Positions 1 to 32,820 of a DNA stretch of 64,000 nt are shown here, piece by piece. Both the position numbers and the translations under genes were made by a program. The notes below the pieces were generated by a model. It was given only the letters and a program-made list of their open reading frames with translations, did no database searches and had not been told where the DNA came from. The DNA lies in the NCBI GenBank assembly GCA_000182565.2, contig KQ257459.1; one strand, written 5' to 3'. The DNA is from Spizellomyces punctatus DAOM BR117 (Eukaryota). Each line of letters starts with the position of its first letter. Position 1 is the first letter of the stretch.

Positions 1-210
1 CACCTAACCCTAACCCTAACCCTAACCCTAACCCTAACCCTAACCCTAACCCTAACCCTAACCTAACCCTAACCCTAACCCTAACCCTAACCCTAACCCT
101 AACCCTAACCCTAACCCTAACCCTAACCCTAACCCTAACCCTAACCCTAACCCTAACCCTAACCCTAACCCTAACCCTAACCCTAACCCTAACCCTAACC
201 CTAACCCTAA
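1..210. repeat. Telomeric repeat (CCCTAA)n / (TTAGGG)n, chromosome end
   Basis: About 33 perfect CCCTAA units from the first bases of the window, with one CCTAA variant at 62-66. The tract ends abruptly at 210. Confidence 0.98.
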
Positions 211-2279: not shown

Positions 2280-2726
2280 GGGTCCATATATTCGTTATTA
2301 GCTTTACCTCTGTCGTCGTGGATGGGAGCGAATCAGTTTCGTGCTGCCTGACTGGCGACTCGTTCTGATGGCCTGCTGCAGACATGCTCTACCGTGCACA
2401 CTGGCGCATGATGGATAAAGAGCTTTAGAAAACGAGACCAAGTGGAAGACTTGCTGAGGACCCCAAGCCGTTTGCAAGTTGCTGCGCAATGGGAGTTTCC
2501 GTATGGAATGGTTCCAAAATAACGAAACACTTGGAAGGAAAAGTGGGAAATTTTGCGAAAAAAGTTGTACCCGCTCTCTGAACAGCAATTGCATTGCAAC
2601 TCTTTTTTTGTTTACACTTGGGGATGATCATCACATCTGCAAATGCTTGGGAATGTTGAAAGCTTGCAATAATAATAATAATCACTCTTTTGAAATGTCA
2701 TTCCCTACGATTCTTGTCAGCACATA

Positions 2727-2756
2727 AGTGTGTGGGAAAATAGAAATGTCAGTGCC
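2727..2756 (+). repeat. Left terminal inverted repeat of the Fanzor element
   Basis: AGTGTGTGGGAAAATAGAAATGTCAGTGCC matches the reverse complement of 4910-4939 (AGTGTATTAGCAAAAACAAATGTCAGTGCC) at 24/30 positions. The inner 13 nt are identical. Confidence 0.85.
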
Positions 2757-2972
2757 ACGGAGCATCGCAGCCAGTTGAATTAACCACATTTATTGTGAAC
2801 CTCACGAAGATAAACAAAAAAACGGGTCCAATACGTGCGGCAACGAACTGAATATTCTGCAGTTGCTCCACCATTGAAAAACGGGTCCAATGCGCAGTTG
2901 TCATATTTCTATATAAACCTGCCTTCCCTGCCCATTTCCCAGGTTTTCATCCATTTTTCTATTCCAATCATC

Positions 2973-4853
2973 ATGCTGCCAAAGAAAAAGCAAAAGCTTG
3001 AAAAACTTGACAAACCCACCTTACATACCTGCAACAAAACTTCCTTTGCAAAAGCTTTCCTGCCAAATGAGATCTACCACCAATGGCTTCTAGATTACAT
3101 CACCATCATCCATCAACTCGCTGACCACACTTCCCACGTGCTGAAATTCTACATCCTATCTGCACCATCCTTTCCCATGGTAGATCAAGATACAATCGAA
3201 GTGATTCTCTATCTTCTCAACAAAGGTGAATCATGGCAACCAAAAACCGGTGCAAAAAAGGCATTATGCAAATCCTTGTTGCCATACATCCAACAGTACT
3301 GCCACATTGTTGGCTATGTTCATCCAAATCTACAAAAAGAGCAGCAGTCAATCAATTACCTGACAGCAAGTATGATGACAAACCTGAAGGTCAACATTCA
3401 AGAACATTTCATGATGATGCTGCTCCAATATATCAATCTGTGGCTTGACGTGAAGGGACGGAAAGGGCAGCTGCCACTGAAAAGTGATGCGCAGAAAGCT
3501 TTCTTTACTCGGCTATGCTATTTAAAGTCAGTTTTCCTTTTCGAAACCATGCCAGAATTGCTGGATGACTTGACTGCTGAAGAGAGTGAACTTCTAGAAG
3601 AGATTTGGTCCCTTAACATTCCCCTTTCTGATGACCAGCCACTCGCATATTCCATTGCTGTAGACCCTCTCGCGTTCTTTCCTGCATACTGTCAGGTGTC
3701 AAGCCTATATGAAAAGCATGGATTTCGATGGTTCAGCGCCATCCCACTTTGCTGCTCCCTCATCCAAAGCCATGTGTGGATTGACACTGTCATCCTCTAC
3801 TCTCATGTTCTTTGCATCACATGACAAGAAGCAGAAGCTGTAGAGAAGGTCGATTTATGGTTGTGCATCTGCAATCTACGTACCAAAGCTTTTCAGTCTC
3901 ACCATGGTATGCAGTTTGAAGGCTCGATCACGACAGATGGAACCTTGGTATCTGTATACCTAAAGCACCCAGAAGGAGACAAGTATGGAAAGCATGGAGC
4001 GAGAAAGTCAGCAAACATGGTGGTGGCAGAGGTCAAAGTGCTTTATGTGGAGAACAACTTACCTGCTTGTTGAGCAGCAGAGAATGTCATCATTATTGAC
4101 CCAAACAAGTGTGACATTCTGTACTGCCAAGACAGCAATGGTACGACATTTTGCTACACCACCAACCAGCGAGCCGTGGAGACTGGAAGCCATCGATTTG
4201 CAAAAGAACTGCAGCAGATGAAGAAAGCGGGAATTGACCTCATAGAATCATGTATCCCTAGCCACAAAACAATGAACCTCATGGATTTTACTCACTATCT
4301 CCTCATTCGGCGCACTGATTCAGATCATCGAAAGGACTTCTATTCGCATCCTGCCCACACGCGGTGGAAGTGGCATGCATTTATAAACCATCAGAAGAGT
4401 GAATCGAACCTCATATCTGACTTGCGCAACAAGTATGGTGAAAACTTTACCATTGTGATGGGAGATTGGAGCGATGCCGGTCAAACTGCAAGATTTCAGA
4501 CCTCATCAAAGACGAAAGGTTGGCATGCCCTCTTTACGTGCAACAGGATCAACTGCTTCCTTCTCGACAAGTATAAAACCTCATCTGTCTGCCCTCACTG
4601 TTCCTCTGGCGTTGAAAAAGGCTTCAAAACACGACCTCATTCAAGACCTTGGCAGCGAGGCAAGATTGAAAAAGTCCACGGATTGCTGGGTTGTACCAAC
4701 CCTAACTGTTTGCAGCAAGCCTGGACAATGCGCTACTGGAATCGAGATACGCTGAGCACCTGCAATATGGTAACGATCGTGCAATCAATGTTGGCTGGAC
4801 ATGGTAGACCAGACGTGTTCAGCAGGCAGTGTTCCAGCCGTAGCGTAGCATAG
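2973..4853 (+). pseudogene. Fz1: Fanzor1 RNA-guided endonuclease (TnpB/Cas12-related RuvC), inactivated, about 626 codons
   Basis: ORFs 2835-3824, 3861-4073 and 4176-4853 share one frame and are separated only by TGA at 3822-3824 and 4071-4073. The protein has an N-terminal NLS-like PKKKQK, then ITTDG, RuvC-I IIIDPNK, MGDWS, LLD(K)YKTS, zinc finger CPHC..CTNPNC and RuvC-III WNRD. It closely resembles SpuFz1 as I recall that sequence. Confidence 0.93.
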
Positions 4854-4867
4854 ATTGGTTAGATTAG

Positions 4868-4955
4868 CTTTTCCGAACCGGTTGTCGCCGGTTTATTCCC
4901 TGGTGTGGAGGCACTGACATTTGTTTTTGCTAATACACTAAGTGTCTGTCCCTGA
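4868..4955 (+). ncRNA. Putative Fanzor omegaRNA: scaffold 4868-4940 plus flank-derived guide from 4941
   Basis: Lies directly downstream of the ORF. Contains hairpin AACCGG-TTGTCG-CCGGTT (4876-4893) and a long stem of 4901-4913 with 4928-4940. The CTTTTCCGA..CCCTGGTG..CACTA layout resembles the SpuFz1 omegaRNA as recalled. The ~15-nt guide length is assumed from SpuFz1. Confidence 0.8.
4910..4939 (-). repeat. Right terminal inverted repeat of the Fanzor element (overlaps the omegaRNA 3' stem)
   Basis: Reverse-complement match to 2727-2756 (24/30). Confidence 0.85.
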
Positions 4956-5832
4956 TACGCTTTCTTGCGATTTCCCACAAGTAGTCCGTTGAAAGAGATT
5001 TCTTCCTCTTTGTAATCTCTCTCTCTCTCTCTCTCTTCCCTCTCTTTTCCCAAACCTCCTCCCACTCTCCTCCAGTCTCATCTTCCAGTGCAACTTAGCT
5101 AAATTCCCATTCAAAAAAAACACCCATATCAAAAACTAAAGCCCCAGTAGGAAATCGCGCAATCTTCTCTTTTGGCCATAAATGGAAATTTCCGGTTGGA
5201 TTTTTGGATGGGGTTCTCACATAATGTGACGTTTTTCCCTCTCTTGGTTGCTGCCACCGCTGCCTTTTATTACTTGTCAGTTTGCTCTGTCTTTTGCTCT
5301 GGTTATTTCCCACACACACACGCACTTGTCGTTATCTTTTGTCAAGGACCTCATTGCAAACGCGCTTGCCCTTCATTTGAGAATTGGTTCTGGTCTCATC
5401 TACTGATCGCTCTCAGGCAAATCCCCTGCATATTGAAGTTTGGCTACTAGAGGAGGGGTTTACCCAGTGACGACACATAAAGCAAAAAGGGGAGAACAAG
5501 GAACAAGCTCTCGAAACTTGGGTATGCGTGAGAAAAAGACTGTCAAAACGAATTCGACAGCTTTCCCAGGATACTGATAAAATGCCGCTTACAGGAAGAA
5601 ACAGCCACCCACAGTTACTCCACCCATCGGTGTCGCTCGATCCGGTCCCCCTTTTATCCCGCACCATTGTTCCTTCACCGGTACGAGTCCAAGACGCCGC
5701 GTACGATACTCGAACTGTCCTATTCCTTTGAGTCGGGTATGTGCAATTGGAGTGCAGTCAACCTTAATAGGTTCACTTTCTCACCTTCATTTTTGCAAAC
5801 GTGAAACAGGGCCATCGCACCTGCGCTCCCAA

Positions 5833-8800
5833 ATGCCCCGCCCACAAACTATCCACGAAGCATCGCTTGGAAGAAGCTCGAGACCGTCTACGCCGTCCGG
5901 GCCTCCAAGCCGCCACTCAACTTACGCGTCGGCCCTACGATCTCGCACGCACAGCTACCGCAATACTCCTGGAGGGAATACACCGGAAATTGGGGAGCAA
6001 GGGGAAGCATGGGACGGAGATCCTGATCGGACCCAGTTCAGACACACTGGGGACTTTTCTGCCATTCCTCCAAGTAGTCACGATGATGTTCATGAAGACT
6101 GGGAGGAAGGGCACGAATCACCAGAGGGACATGACTCTGGGAATGGATCGGGAGGCGAGGGCCAAGAGTCGGATGGAGAAGCGCGGCGGTTGAGAGACGT
6201 TCAAGAGGTCAGTTTTCTTTTTGCTCGAGATGCTGAAATTGCTAACGTTGGTATGAACTGACAATGGTACCTTCAGGCTATCAATGTAAGTCATCCGTTC
6301 GGTCTCAGAATATGGAAGCCGGCCTTGTATCGGAAATTCCGTAGTATCGATACCAAAACGTACAATGCACTGCATGCTACACCTGGCGAAAGACCGACGC
6401 GTACACTTTACCTCAATCCGGGAAATATACTGTGGTTGATCCTTTTTGGCTGGTGGCTCGCTCTCGTGTACTTCCTGGTGGCGACAGTTGTGCTGGGTCC
6501 CCTGGCTTTTCTTGGAAAGGTCGGAGCCACGATATACTTTTGTGGGAACGAGCGTGAGGAAATAGAATGTGGCCTTACGAGCTGTGTTGGATGGTTCTTC
6601 ATTGAGCTGGAAAATATCTGGCAGTACTCAAAAGTACGTCCTCTGCACAGTGTTTCAGTAGCCTTTCTGCCCCTCTAACATCTGATGCACATGGTAGGTC
6701 TTAATGAATCTTTCCGGATATATCCTGTGGCCTTTTGGCAAGTTCATTGCGAAGCGCCGAGTCTATCACATGGTCTTCCAGGAGGATCATGATGGGACGG
6801 CAAATGGCGTATCAAATGAGCGGACGGCACTGTTGTCTGATCACGATGGACAGCGATATTCGGAAGATACCTATGTTGTTGGCATACCCGATGATAGCGT
6901 TCCCGCAACGCCAGTGCCAGAACCTGCGTCATCAGCGGATAGACAAGACTTAAAGGTTGCGGCTTGCTGTGACAATGAGGCCAACGCAGAAAATATGAGC
7001 GAAGTTTCCGAAGAATCTTGGCATGAATTTATGTCGTCGAGTCGCAGGTACAGCTACGCGAACGGACATCATCATCGTTGGCCAAAATGGGTTCCGCGAT
7101 GGATTAGAAGAGCGTACAATGCTGGACTGGCAGGAAACTTATTCCGGCTGCTGCTCCTTATAACCATCGCACCTTTGCAGTTCGTCGTGGCTTGCATGTG
7201 CTCCTTTCTCGTCTTTCCACTGCCAATGGCCAAGCTGAATTACGTCCTCTTGAAGCATCTTTTCCGACACCCACTGCAGATCTCTGCCCACACTCCTGTG
7301 TACTCCAAGAGACCCAGCACTCGTCCCTCCAGAAGCGCTAGCCTGGCATCTCGCGCATCGGATATTTGGCGAAGGTCGAGTCGCATGTTTGGGCGGCCCA
7401 CAAGCATATTTTCCGAGTCGGCCGAGCCCATTGCTATTCCTACCACGTTAGGAACCCCGACGCAGATGCCAAGTGGTGCTGTGGCTCAAGGTCCCCAGCT
7501 GGCTCCCGAATTCCAAGTGATTCTGTGCACTTATAATGCTCTTGGATGGGATTACTACAAGTACACGTATGACGGGATCAACATCATTGTTATCAATTTG
7601 ATAGCAGTCGTCATTTTCGCGCTGGTAGATTTTTACGTGATCGGTCCACGCTTTGGTTACACCGGAATTGCAAGTAACACTGTTATTTTCGTGGCGTCGC
7701 TCATCAGTTCGATTCCTTTGGCGTACTTTATCGGAATGGCCGTTGCGTCGATTACGTCTGAAACAGGGTCTTTGGCTGTGGGAGCGGTGATCAATGCCAC
7801 TTTTGGATCCATCATCGAAATCATTCTGTACTCGCTCGCACTGGTGGAGGGCAAACAGCGCATGGTCGAAGGTGCCATAGTGGGATCTTTACTGGCTGGC
7901 TTGTTGGCCTTACCTGGTGTGTCAATGTTCTTTGGTGGATTGAAGAAGAAGGAGCAACGGTTCAACGCAAAAGCTGCTGGTGTGACAGCCACCATGTTGA
8001 TCGTAGCAGTTGTTGGGATGTTTACGCCTACCTTATTCCAAGAAGTGTATGGAACGCAGAAGCTAAAGTGCCTAGAGTGTCCGACAACTGTGGATCAGCA
8101 TTCAATGACTCCCCTCGGACTCGCGCTATCTTGTAAACATTGTCGTCTGATTAGCCCGCGCCCTTCGGAGGACCCGATTTACTTGACCAGTACGAGGCCG
8201 CTGGCATGGCTGTGTGCTGCTGCATTACTTTTGATGTATGCAGTCGGACTGCTATTCACATTGAGGACCCACTCACGTGTGATTTATGACAAACCCGACA
8301 AAAAGGTGAAGAGAAGGCGGAGGGCGGCTGCTGTATCCAGGGCATTGGACTTGGCAAAGAGCGACCATCATCATGGAATTCGTGCTATTGGAGGATTAGG
8401 AATAACAAATGATTATGGAGCAGAGGCTGCAGATCGAGAATTGCGTGAATCAAGAAACCCGAGAACCTCGGCAGCTGGTAATATTGGACAAGGACACGGG
8501 AAACGGGTATCACGAGTTAGCAACGCGGCCTCTATTCCCCCGAATGAATATCCCTTTCCTAACGTTCCACTAACGATCGAAACTTCCACCGGTTCCCGAC
8601 CAGTGAGTCTTACAACCCCCACAACACCCATCTCGCCGTCCCTCCCGCCCTGCCGCGGAATTCAAACGACATCTGGTGTCGTTCAGGTCGTTCACCCCGA
8701 TCCTGTTGTTTCAGTGATCGGTGGGGATGATTGGGATACGGCCTCAACAGGGTCATCCGAGTCTGATGAATCGGAAGCCCACGGACATGACCATCCAAAC

Positions 8801-9450
8801 TGGAGTATTTTTAAAAGCGCTCTGGTTCTACTCGGGTGTACGACATTGTATTCGCTTGTGGCGGAAGTTTTGATCAGCTCCGTGGATGAGGTTATTGAAG
8901 CGTATGATATTGATGAGAAGGTTCTCGGTGCAACATTGTTCTCGATTGTACCGCTTGTTACAGAATTTTGTGAGTATCATTGTGAGCATTTTGTGGTGTT
9001 AAGTAATCATATCTCATTATTCTCTTTTCAGACAATGCTATCGCTTTCGCCATGAACGGCAACATTGCGCTCTCCCTTGAGATCGGCTCCGCCTATGTTA
9101 TGCAAGCCGCCATGCTCCAGATCCCAGTCATGGTTGCCTTCTCCTCGTTGTTCTTTAAGCCTAGTCCAGCTGATCCCCCCAGTTTACCCACGTCCCCTCT
9201 CACTAAGCTTTACGCCTTGTTCTCTACCCCCACGACACCCTCCACCAGTACGAGCATAGATGGCTTCACCATGATCTTCCCGCGATGGGACTTGTACGCT
9301 GTGCTATTTGGCACCTTTATGTTGACATACGTCTACACGGAGGGTAAGAGCAATTACTTTAAGGGAAGTATGTTACTGGTAGCCTATTTCATTCTTTTGG
9401 CTGGGTATGTATTTGAGCCGGGGGACTCGGGTTGGGGAGAGGCAGTATAG
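5833..9450 (+). CDS. VNX1: Vacuolar cation/H+ exchanger, CAX family, Vnx1-like (multi-exon)
   Basis: AINVSHPFGLRIWKPALYRKFRS, GNILWLILFGWWLA, alpha-1 GAVINATFGSIIE, alpha-2 NGNIALSLEIGSAY..Q and EGKSNYFKG. GT-AG introns join ORFs 5728-6261, 6325-6678, 6704-9055 and 9052-9450. Confidence 0.9.
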
Positions 9451-12277: not shown

Positions 12278-12351
12278 GGCCGCGTGGCGCAATGGACTAG
12301 CGTATTGGACTTCGGATCCAAAGGTTGCGGGTTCGAGTCCCGTCGTGGTCG
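12278..12351 (+). tRNA. tRNA-Arg (anticodon TCG)
   Basis: Cloverleaf GGCCGCG..CGTGGTC, anticodon arm TTGGA-CTTCGGA-TCCAA, T-loop GTTCGAG, downstream T-run. Confidence 0.95.
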
Positions 12352-32746: not shown

Positions 32747-32820
32747 CGACCACGACGGGACTCGAACCCGCAACCTTTGGATCCGAAGTCCAATACGCTA
32801 GTCCATTGCGCCACGCGGCC
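32747..32820 (-). tRNA. tRNA-Arg (anticodon TCG), identical second copy
   Basis: Exact reverse complement of 12278-12351. Confidence 0.95.

What the first reader, a model, noticed from the sequence alone, without database searches (positions are those of the whole stretch)
4868..4955. omegaRNA scaffold built partly from the right TIR, with predicted guide AGTGTCTGTCCCTGA
Seen: a 6-bp hairpin (AACCGG/CCGGTT, 4876-4893) and a long stem TGGTGTGGAGGCA (4901-4913) pairing with TGCTAATACACTA (4928-4940), with G-U pairs and a 2x2 internal loop. Compared with the recalled SpuFz1 stem (UGGUGCGG/CCGCACUA) there is an apparent compensatory C-G to U-A change. Inference: the scaffold still looks foldable although the ORF is dead, so it could guide an intact Fanzor in trans against the empty allele CATA+AGTGTCTGTCCCTGA.
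Basis: partly seen in the sequence, partly recalled or inferred. Interest (0 to 1): 0.8.

Follow-up and report, generated by a model that had tools for sequence, protein, structure and literature searches.

The report
Guide-RNA end of dead Fanzor transposon
This is the guide-RNA (omegaRNA) end of a decayed copy of the Fanzor1 transposon of the chytrid fungus Spizellomyces punctatus, a system already described in print, and nothing yet shows that this particular copy is used.

Summary
Bases 4868-4940 fold into the two stems described (z -3.0) and are the homologue of the published 75-nt SpuFz1 omegaRNA scaffold (Saito et al. 2023). The first 39 nt are identical to the published Ghost4 scaffold. 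The protein-contacting nucleotides named in the cryo-EM paper are kept, except G22, which is also absent from working ghost scaffolds. The last 30 nt are the right inverted repeat, ending in CACTA. The next 15 nt (4941-4955) sit where the flank-derived guide lies. The upstream Fanzor1 gene (2973-4853) is dead: two in-frame TGA codons, catalytic E541 changed to K, and heavy CpG-to-TpG/CpA decay.

Reads from an RNA run cover the scaffold very deeply and on one strand, and coverage falls to zero after 4955. At 4940, 3,500 reads continue into a different 15-nt tail, so homology among copies ends exactly there. However, about 95% of RNA reads at the diagnostic base 4931 come from paralogues, so expression of this copy is not shown.

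Use of protein-less guide loci by Fanzor made elsewhere in the genome was already proposed and tested in human cells by Saito et al. Verdict: real, a known kind, low novelty.

The parts
2723..2726 (+). CATA at the left junction. CA is flank and TA is the first two bases of the left inverted repeat. It equals the published SpuFz1 TAM.
   Evidence: Sequence. The canonical locus reads CA then TAGTGCGG, with the IR feature starting at the T. TAM 5'-CATA.
2725..2756 (+). Left inverted repeat of the Spu-1-type element.
   Evidence: the repeat finder pair I8, 2727-2756 vs 4910-4939, 30 nt, 80%. Extended by the terminal TA by comparison with the canonical locus.
2973..4853 (+). Fanzor1 pseudogene, 626 codons in a single frame, with final stop TAG at 4851-4853.
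   Evidence: Translation. 72-81% identity to S. punctatus DAOM BR117 Fanzor1 paralogues. PDB 8gkh chain P, E 0, 1095 bits.
3822..3824 (+). In-frame TGA at codon 284. It replaces SpuFz1 R291, a TAM-contacting residue.
4071..4073 (+). In-frame TGA at codon 367, where 3 of the 4 S. punctatus copies with a residue there have R, one Q.
4569..4571 (+). AAG (K533) in place of the catalytic glutamate E541 of SpuFz1.
   Evidence: Alignment mapping: the other 9 of 10 sequences have E. Codon. E541 coordinates Mg2+.
4868..4940 (+). omegaRNA scaffold homologue, 73 nt.
   Evidence: Folds. Compared by eye with the published scaffolds. Read depth.
4875..4894 (+). Stem-loop 1: 8 predicted pairs and loop UGUC.
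   Evidence: Covariation at 4880/4889 in reads.
4895..4900 (+). 6-nt linker AUUCCC (canonical AAUCCC).
4901..4940 (+). Stem 2. Its base (4901-4905 with 4936-4940) is identical to the canonical scaffold. Its distal part is a variant not found in the published ghost list.
4910..4940 (+). Right inverted repeat, ending in CACTA.
4941..4955 (+). Predicted 15-nt guide, taken from the flank.
   Evidence: Position relative to the published scaffold end and the 14-15-nt guide. RNA depth is 0 from 4956 on. Paralogue reads carry a tail of median length 15 after 4940. No reads with this particular guide were shown.

Best explanation
Bases 4868-4955 are the omegaRNA gene of a decayed, subtelomeric copy of the Spu-1 Fanzor1 transposon of Spizellomyces punctatus. 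It consists of a 73-nt scaffold (stem-loop 1, 6-nt linker, stem 2) followed by a 15-nt guide.

What is shown: homology to the published scaffold, the fold, the position of the scaffold's 3' half inside the right inverted repeat, the death of the nuclease gene in cis, and the end of homology among copies at 4940.

What is inferred: if this copy is transcribed, its RNA would be bound by Fanzor1 made from intact copies elsewhere, as the published ghost omegaRNAs are. It would direct cleavage at CATA followed by the guide match, which is the uninterrupted form of this insertion site. The occupied site would be spared because the four bases before the guide match read ACTA, not CATA.

I put identity and structural competence at about 0.9. 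I put the chance that this copy is actually expressed and used at about 0.3.
For: Organism. The flanking gene is 99% identical to the S. punctatus DAOM BR117 calcium/proton exchanger P0035.

Nuclease gene. The ORF matches S. punctatus Fanzor1 paralogues at 72-81% identity and the solved SpuFz1 structure 8gkh.

Scaffold compared with the paper's supplement.
- The first 39 nt equal Ghost4.
- U5, C6, C7, the loop U16-G20, the linker C's, U35, G37, A72 and A75 are all kept. These are the contacts named.
- G22 is missing, as it is in Ghost1, Ghost2, Ghost4 and ID14.
- All other differences from the canonical scaffold in stem 2 lie inside C40-G70, which one search reports as not contacting the protein and dispensable.

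Fold. z -3.0, with 3 of 200 shuffles folding as well.

Reads.
- RNA run X19 gives depth 26,817 and 34,343 on 4860-4907, 11,230 on 4908-4931, 2,932 on 4932-4955 and 0 on 4956-5051.
- More than 99% of these reads are in one orientation, the same as most reads over the ORF's 3' end.
- 3,500 reads match up to 4940 and then continue with a different tail (median 15 nt, agreement 0.92).
- The stem-1 pair 4880/4889 changes from G-C to A-U at matched shares: 33%/31% in X19, 10.6%/12.9% in DNA run X20, and both changes in the single X24 contig.

Precedent for use in trans. Ghost omegaRNAs from four loci edited with SpuFz1 in human cells. The authors proposed a guide repertoire that includes ghost loci.
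Against: Expression of this copy is not shown.
- At 4931 only 441 of 8,295 X19 reads carry the window's T.
- 42% of reads carry an extra C after 4907 that the window lacks.
- The bin depth over 4932-4955 is accounted for by reads whose matching part stops at 4940, so few or no reads carry this guide.
- X19 reads extend 13-19 nt upstream of 4860-4867 in paralogues, and no sharp 5' end at 4868 was listed.

The distal stem 2 differs from every published working scaffold I could read. The 2026 study found divergent ghost scaffolds 3- to 9-fold less active.

The four CpGs kept in stem-loop 1 do not prove selection. The last 75 codons of the ORF also kept 4 of 5 arginine CpGs.

The biological role of Fanzor cleavage is itself unknown.
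Confidence: 0.85

Rival explanations
1. Silent relic. The module is an omegaRNA gene by descent only. This methylated, subtelomeric pseudogene copy is not transcribed, or only negligibly, and contributes no guide. Its intact look reflects slower decay of the element's 3' end, or a past conversion by a ghost-type copy.
For: At least 95% of RNA reads at 4931 come from paralogues, and no read with this guide was shown. The ORF shows heavy CpG decay: 28 of 39 arginine-codon CpGs lost, and CpG o/e 0.51 against 0.88 in the rest of the window. 5mC in Spizellomyces is reported as confined to transposons (passages read). The decay gradient runs 16 lost to 1 kept in codons 1-350, against 1 lost to 4 kept in codons 551-626. 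This explains the preserved CpGs without selection on the RNA.
Against: 441 X19 reads do carry the window's T at 4931, although DNA depth suggests other copies may share it. All listed protein contacts are intact, and the first 39 nt are identical to a working ghost scaffold.
Confidence: 0.45
2. The hairpins serve only as transposon-end DNA (binding sites for an unknown transposase), and the RNA fold is a by-product.
For: The 3' 30 nt are the inverted repeat. The left and right arms of this copy agree with each other (24 of 30) far better than the right arm agrees with the canonical repeat (12 of 30 by my count). This means both ends changed together, as DNA-level recognition would require.
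Against: Stem-loop 1 and the linker lie outside the repeat, yet they are the best conserved part. The family RNA is very abundant and single-stranded in orientation. The cryo-EM structure shows this RNA bound to SpuFz1. The two roles do not exclude each other.
Confidence: 0.05
3. Chance hairpins in 3' untranslated sequence.
For: The 88-nt fold is only moderately better than shuffles (z -2.16, 5 of 200).
Against: Base-for-base homology to a published RNA, covariation in reads, and the depth profile.
Confidence: 0.01

Closest known systems
Canonical SpuFz1 omegaRNA (Saito et al. 2023, PMC10432273; structure PDB 8GKH)
   Same: Same organism and same place in the element: it starts 14 nt after the stop codon and ends at the CACTA end of the right repeat. 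It has the same two-stem-plus-linker design, the same protein-contact nucleotides, the same CATA at the left junction, and a 15-nt guide position.
   Different: It is 73 nt rather than 75. G22 is absent. The linker has A30 changed to U. Pair C40-G70 is U-A here. The distal stem 2, which is the inner part of the repeat, is largely different (12 of 30 repeat positions identical, by my count). The cognate nuclease gene is dead.
Ghost Spu-1 omegaRNAs (Saito et al. 2023; 126 scaffolds listed by the 2026 Nat Commun paper, PMC13434818)
   Same: It would work the same way: a guide locus without its own working nuclease, usable only with Fanzor made elsewhere. The first 39 nt are identical to Ghost4, and it has the same U-A pair at the base of stem 2.
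   Different: Ghost loci lack the Fz ORF and carry a conserved region of about 550 nt. This locus keeps a full-length, inactivated ORF. A 10-nt motif of its distal stem 2 is absent from all 7 supplementary files of the 2026 paper, including the ghost scaffold list.
TnpB omegaRNA/reRNA of IS200/IS605 elements such as ISDra2 (as discussed; other details recalled)
   Same: The RNA is encoded at the transposon's right end and its guide is the adjoining flank. The motif at the left junction serves as the TAM, so the uninterrupted site is the target.
   Different: The SpuFz1 omegaRNA has no pseudoknot and does not overlap the ORF here. No transposase is known for Spu-1, and the biological role is unproven.

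Membership tests
SpuFz1-type (Spu-1) Fanzor1 omegaRNA | [quoted passage not shown] | tested here: met
   Stop at 4851-4853, scaffold at 4868-4940, repeat at 4910-4940.
SpuFz1-type (Spu-1) Fanzor1 omegaRNA | Scaffold of about 75 nt with two stems and a 6-nt linker. | tested here: met
   73 nt. The fold has stem-loop 1, a 6-nt linker and stem 2, with z -3.0.
SpuFz1-type (Spu-1) Fanzor1 omegaRNA | Nucleotides that contact SpuFz1 in the cryo-EM structure are kept (U5, C6, C7, U16-G20, G22, C32, C34, U35, G37, A72, A75). | tested here: met
   Compared by eye. All are kept except G22, which is also absent from Ghost1, Ghost2, Ghost4 and ID14. No tool alignment was made, because the published sequences were not entered into any tool.
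SpuFz1-type (Spu-1) Fanzor1 omegaRNA | Base pairs supported by covariation among copies. | tested here: met
   Pair 4880/4889 changes from G-C to A-U at matched shares in 3 runs. Pair 4906/4935 is U-A here and in ghosts, and C-G in the canonical scaffold.
SpuFz1-type (Spu-1) Fanzor1 omegaRNA | The transcript runs 14-15 nt past the scaffold into variable flank. | tested here: inconclusive
   True for the family and for a paralogue with this repeat variant: 3,500 reads with a median 15-nt tail, and depth 0 from 4956. No reads with this locus's own guide were shown.
SpuFz1-type (Spu-1) Fanzor1 omegaRNA | CATA TAM at the left junction. | tested here: met
   2723-2726. TAM.
SpuFz1-type (Spu-1) Fanzor1 omegaRNA | Bound by Fanzor1 and directs DNA cleavage. 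| not testable with these tools
   Needs a pull-down or cleavage assay.
Ghost Spu-1 element | Two inverted repeats with no Fz ORF between them, and a conserved core of about 550 nt. | tested here: not met
   A full-length, though inactivated, Fz ORF of 626 codons lies between the repeats. It would work like a ghost, but it is not one by definition.
Fanzor1 nuclease (active) | Intact reading frame and the RuvC triad D383, E541, D606. | tested here: not met
   Two in-frame TGA codons. E541 is K. D383 and D606 are kept.

The most novel reading that the evidence does not exclude
The window copy belongs to a third omegaRNA/inverted-repeat subfamily of Spu-1, distinct from the canonical and ghost types, with roughly 4-8 genomic copies. 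At least one member is among the abundantly expressed omegaRNAs. On this reading, full-length Fanzor pseudogenes, and not only ghost loci, are kept as guide donors. Their 3' ends (omegaRNA plus about 250 nt upstream) would be shielded from the CpG decay that destroys the nuclease gene.
Probability: 0.2. Interest if true: 0.4.

Novelty: already known. Interest (0 to 1): 0.17.

Why it matters
It matters little beyond annotation. The RNA, its structure, its guide logic and its use by Fanzor made elsewhere were published for this very organism in 2023. What this locus adds is modest:
- It is an example of a full-length but dead Fanzor gene whose guide module is still intact.
- It hints that the family has more stem-2/repeat variants in use than the two types described in the text of the 2023 paper.
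- It shows a clear footprint of methylation-type CpG decay on a Fanzor element.

If decayed copies do supply guides, the effective guide repertoire of S. punctatus Fanzor would be larger than the intact and ghost loci counted so far.

Tried and rejected
- Own genome: none is held. Other copies, target sites and the empty site could therefore not be searched.
- Metagenome scan with the protein alignment: 69 stretches matched a pattern and 1 locus was confirmed (L001, 2,099 nt). Its match runs to within 8 nt of the contig end, so it has no 3' flank and was of no use for the RNA.
- Rfam: only two tRNAs in the whole window at gathering score. On 4700-5100 at E up to 10 there were 2 chance-level hits (E 7 and 7.6), both outside the scaffold. 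I found no Rfam family for this RNA.
- Pfam on the ORF, in pieces and whole, and on SpuFz1 itself: no family at the thresholds used. The database's precomputed column lists PF26935.1 for 32 of the 33 hits.
- Run search: no RNA holder listed.
- Is this locus in the published lists? Five window motifs gave 0 hits in the 8 supplementary files of Saito et al.. However, the GenBank files there print DNA in blocks of ten, so such terms cannot match. The product name of the downstream gene also gave 0 hits. That gene's CDS starts 893 nt past the element, close to the roughly 950-nt flank of the one record I read, so this negative result is borderline. I cannot say whether the locus is among the 42 published Fz loci.
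- Guide match elsewhere in the window: only the guide itself plus one 3-mismatch site, and 46 of 100 shuffles gave as many.
- Second scaffold in the window: none.
- Selection on the scaffold's CpGs: I considered arguing that 4 of 4 surviving against a 72% loss rate in the ORF showed selection. I dropped this because the ORF's last 75 codons are equally spared.
- The guide's first bases resemble the start of the left repeat (7 of 8) and make the right junction palindromic. The similarity stops after 8 nt, so I treat it as chance and not as a nested insertion.
- Earlier notes of this scan: nothing for this genome or sequence.

Full report
WHERE THE WINDOW COMES FROM

The window opens with telomere repeats, (CCCTAA)n, at 1-210. 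The gene downstream of the finding has exons at 5833-6636, 6698-9007 and 9034-9447. It is 99% identical to the calcium/proton exchanger P0035 of Spizellomyces punctatus DAOM BR117. The next best hit, from Powellomyces hirtus, is 62% identical. The window is therefore a chromosome end of S. punctatus, either that strain or a near-identical one. No whole genome was held for it.

THE ELEMENT

A single frame at 2973-4853 (+) encodes 626 codons with two in-frame TGA codons (284 and 367) and a final TAG.

Read through with X, the protein found 33 proteins at E <= 0.001 among 4,112 candidates. The top hits are S. punctatus proteins at 72-81% identity, including the 638-aa SPPG_07727. That protein is the SpuFz1 of the literature. 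The protein also matches PDB 8gkh chain P at E 0 and 1095 bits.

A 30-nt inverted repeat, 80% complementary, bounds the element at 2727-2756 and 4910-4939. In the canonical locus printed in the paper's Supplementary Data 1, the left repeat starts TAGTGCGG after a conserved CA, and the right repeat ends CCGCACTA. Placed in register with that record, the window element runs from 2725 to 4940 and has one extra A after the leading TA. CATA lies at 2723-2726.

THE GENE IS DEAD

I aligned the window protein with nine relatives and mapped SpuFz1 residues onto it.
- Catalytic E541 is K here. The other 9 sequences have E.
- D383, N385 and D606 are kept.
- The first stop replaces R291, a TAM contact.
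- The RNA contacts R387, R414, R315, R317 and R550 have become C, H, Q, H and H.

There are 82 substitutions private to this copy, defined as columns where at least 4 of 5 S. punctatus paralogues agree. Of these, 28 are R to C, H, Q, W or stop.

Of 46 consensus-arginine columns, 16 keep R (11 as CGN codons, 5 as AGR) and 30 have lost it. Of the 30 losses, 28 are CGN to TGN or CAN.

CpG observed/expected is 0.51 in the ORF against 0.88 in the rest of the window. TG+CA observed/expected is 1.43 against 1.16.

This is the footprint of 5-methylcytosine deamination. A 2025 paper, of which I read passages only, reports 5mC in Spizellomyces as confined to transposons.

The decay follows a gradient.

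| Codons | Arginine CpGs lost | Arginine CpGs kept |
|---|---|---|
| 1-350 | 16 | 1 |
| 351-550 | 11 | 6 |
| 551-626 | 1 | 4 |

THE RNA MODULE

The fold of 4868-4940 gives stem-loop 1 (4875-4894), a 6-nt linker, and stem 2 (4901-4940). MFE is -23.4, z is -3.00, and 3 of 200 shuffles fold as well. With the guide added, z is -2.16 and 5 of 200 shuffles fold as well.

I compared the sequence by eye with the scaffolds printed in the supplement of Saito et al. and with the canonical locus.
- Base 4868 aligns with the first base of the 75-nt scaffold.
- Base 4940 aligns with the last A of CACTA.
- The first 39 nt are identical to the Ghost4 scaffold.
- Against the canonical scaffold, the 5' half differs at five places: G1 to C, G10 to A, G22 absent, C28 to U, and A30 to U.
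- G10 to A turns a G-U pair into A-U.
- C28 to U turns a G-C pair into G-U.
- The G22 deletion is shared with Ghost1, Ghost2, Ghost4 and ID14. The ghosts were tested in human cells and ID14 was tested in yeast.

The structure section of the paper (read in full) names the protein contacts as U5, C6, C7, U16-G20, G22, C32, C34, U35, G37, A72 and A75. All but G22 are present here.

The same section states that C40-G70 does not touch the protein and can be removed. All the stem-2 differences between the window and the canonical scaffold lie in that stretch.
- At the base of stem 2, the pair that is C40-G70 in the canonical scaffold is U-A here and in the ghosts.
- The next pair is G-C in the canonical scaffold, A-U in the ghosts and G-U here.

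THE REPEAT VARIANT

The right repeat of this copy matches the canonical repeat at 12 of 30 positions and the ghost repeat at 18 of 30 (my counts). It matches its own left arm at 24 of 30. The two ends therefore changed together, which marks a separate lineage and not random decay.

A 10-nt motif of this variant is absent from all 7 supplementary files of the 2026 Nat Commun paper, which list 126 ghost scaffolds.

I could not tell whether the locus is among the 42 'loci with Fz' of Saito et al. My motif terms cannot match DNA printed in blocks of ten. The downstream gene's product name gave 0 hits, but that gene starts 893 nt from the element, near the edge of the flank used in the one record I read.

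READS

Depth in RNA run X19 (raw reads up to 60 nt, about 6% of the run read):

| Interval | Depth, main orientation | Depth, other orientation |
|---|---|---|
| ORF 3' end | about 30-120 | |
| 4860-4883 | 26,817 | 42.5 |
| 4884-4907 | 34,343 | 54 |
| 4908-4931 | 11,230 | |
| 4932-4955 | 2,932 | |
| 4956-5051 | 0 | |

The main orientation is the same as that of most reads over the ORF. Which physical strand this is depends on library chemistry that I could not see. It agrees with the published sense orientation.

At 4940, 3,500 reads run on into a tail unlike the window, with median length 15 and agreement 0.92. This shows three things:
- Homology among copies ends exactly at 4940.
- The RNAs carry about 15 nt of local flank.
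- A paralogue with this repeat variant is strongly expressed.

Combined depth in DNA run X20 (ChIP, so copy numbers are rough):

| Interval | Depth |
|---|---|
| 4860-4883 | 1,684 |
| 4884-4907 | 1,396 |
| 4908-4931 | 215 |
| 4932-4955 | 72 |
| 4956-4979 | 29.5 |

These depths suggest tens of copies of the 5' half of the scaffold and a handful of copies of this stem-2 variant.

Covariation at the stem-1 pair 4880/4889, which changes from G-C to A-U:

| Run | Share changed at 4880 | Share changed at 4889 |
|---|---|---|
| X19 | 11,566 of 34,922 | 11,516 of 37,208 |
| X20 | 203 of 1,913 | 212 of 1,649 |
| X1 contigs | depth 32.1 of 170.7 | depth 37.5 of 146.7 |
| X24 (single contig) | present | present |

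The table printed only the best-supported rows. 46 further differences and 135 further loose ends were not shown.

WHAT THE READS DO NOT SHOW
- At 4931 the window has T, but 7,854 of 8,295 X19 reads have C. That C would restore a G-C pair in stem 2.
- In DNA run X20, 43 of 136 reads have C at 4931.
- 4,957 of 11,687 X19 reads carry an extra C after 4907.
- The depth of the 4932-4955 bin is about what reads stopping at 4940 would give.

This locus therefore contributes at most about 5% of the signal, and possibly none.

Reads from paralogues also extend 13-19 nt upstream of 4860-4867, and no sharp start at 4868 was listed. X19 thus contains longer species than the 88-90-nt RNA seen in the published small-RNA-seq.

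MECHANISM

Published for the family:
- It is bound by SpuFz1.
- It pairs its 14-15-nt guide with DNA next to 5'-CATA.
- It directs cleavage, and any change to the TAM abolishes cleavage.

Inferred for this copy:
- It would have to be loaded by Fanzor made from intact copies.
- Its target would be CATA plus the 4941-4955 sequence, which is what the site would read with a single TA and no element.
- The occupied site would be spared, because ACTA precedes the guide match.

The authors already proposed that protein-less loci enlarge the guide repertoire, and they state that the biological role of Fanzor cleavage is unknown.

VERDICT

The feature is real and correctly read, and it is a known system in the organism where that system was defined. 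The full-text search for Fanzor, ghost and Spizellomyces returned only the 2023 paper. The 2026 paper was found by the search for Fanzor and SpuFz1. Earlier notes of this scan describe analogous nuclease-less Fanzor guide loci in giant viruses and name the same closest relative. I did not test those notes.

Noticed in passing
window 2973-4853: Strong CpG-to-TpG/CpA decay of the Fanzor ORF. 28 of 82 private substitutions are R to C, H, Q, W or stop, and CpG o/e is 0.51. The decay follows a 5'-to-3' gradient, and the last 75 codons and the omegaRNA are largely spared.
   Followed up: partly
window 4906 (loose ends): 7,591 RNA reads match the scaffold up to 4906 and then continue with a consensus (agreement 0.87) that fits none of the canonical, ghost or window stem 2 sequences. 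This suggests further expressed omegaRNA stem-2 variants in this genome.
   Followed up: no
window 4908-4940: At least one paralogue sharing this copy's repeat variant is highly expressed with its own 15-nt tail. It has C at 4931, and part of the reads have an extra C after 4907. DNA depth suggests a handful of genomic copies.
   Followed up: partly
window 4935-4945 and 2725-2734: The right junction is a near-palindrome (ACACT A AGTGT). The first 8 bases of the guide match the start of the left repeat after its TA at 7 of 8 positions. The similarity stops there, so it is probably chance.
   Followed up: partly
window 1-210: Telomere repeats (CCCTAA)n. The element lies about 2.5 kb from the chromosome end.
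   Followed up: no
window 2814-2900: The motif AAACGGGTCCAAT upstream of the ORF occurs twice here, about 60 nt apart. It occurs once at the same place in the canonical SpuFz1 locus. It may be a duplicated promoter element.
   Followed up: no
window 12278-12351 and 32747-32820: Two identical 74-nt tRNA genes in opposite orientation, 20.4 kb apart.
   Followed up: no
window 5006-5049: A (CT)n microsatellite just downstream of the element. The read tool skipped it as a repeat.
   Followed up: no
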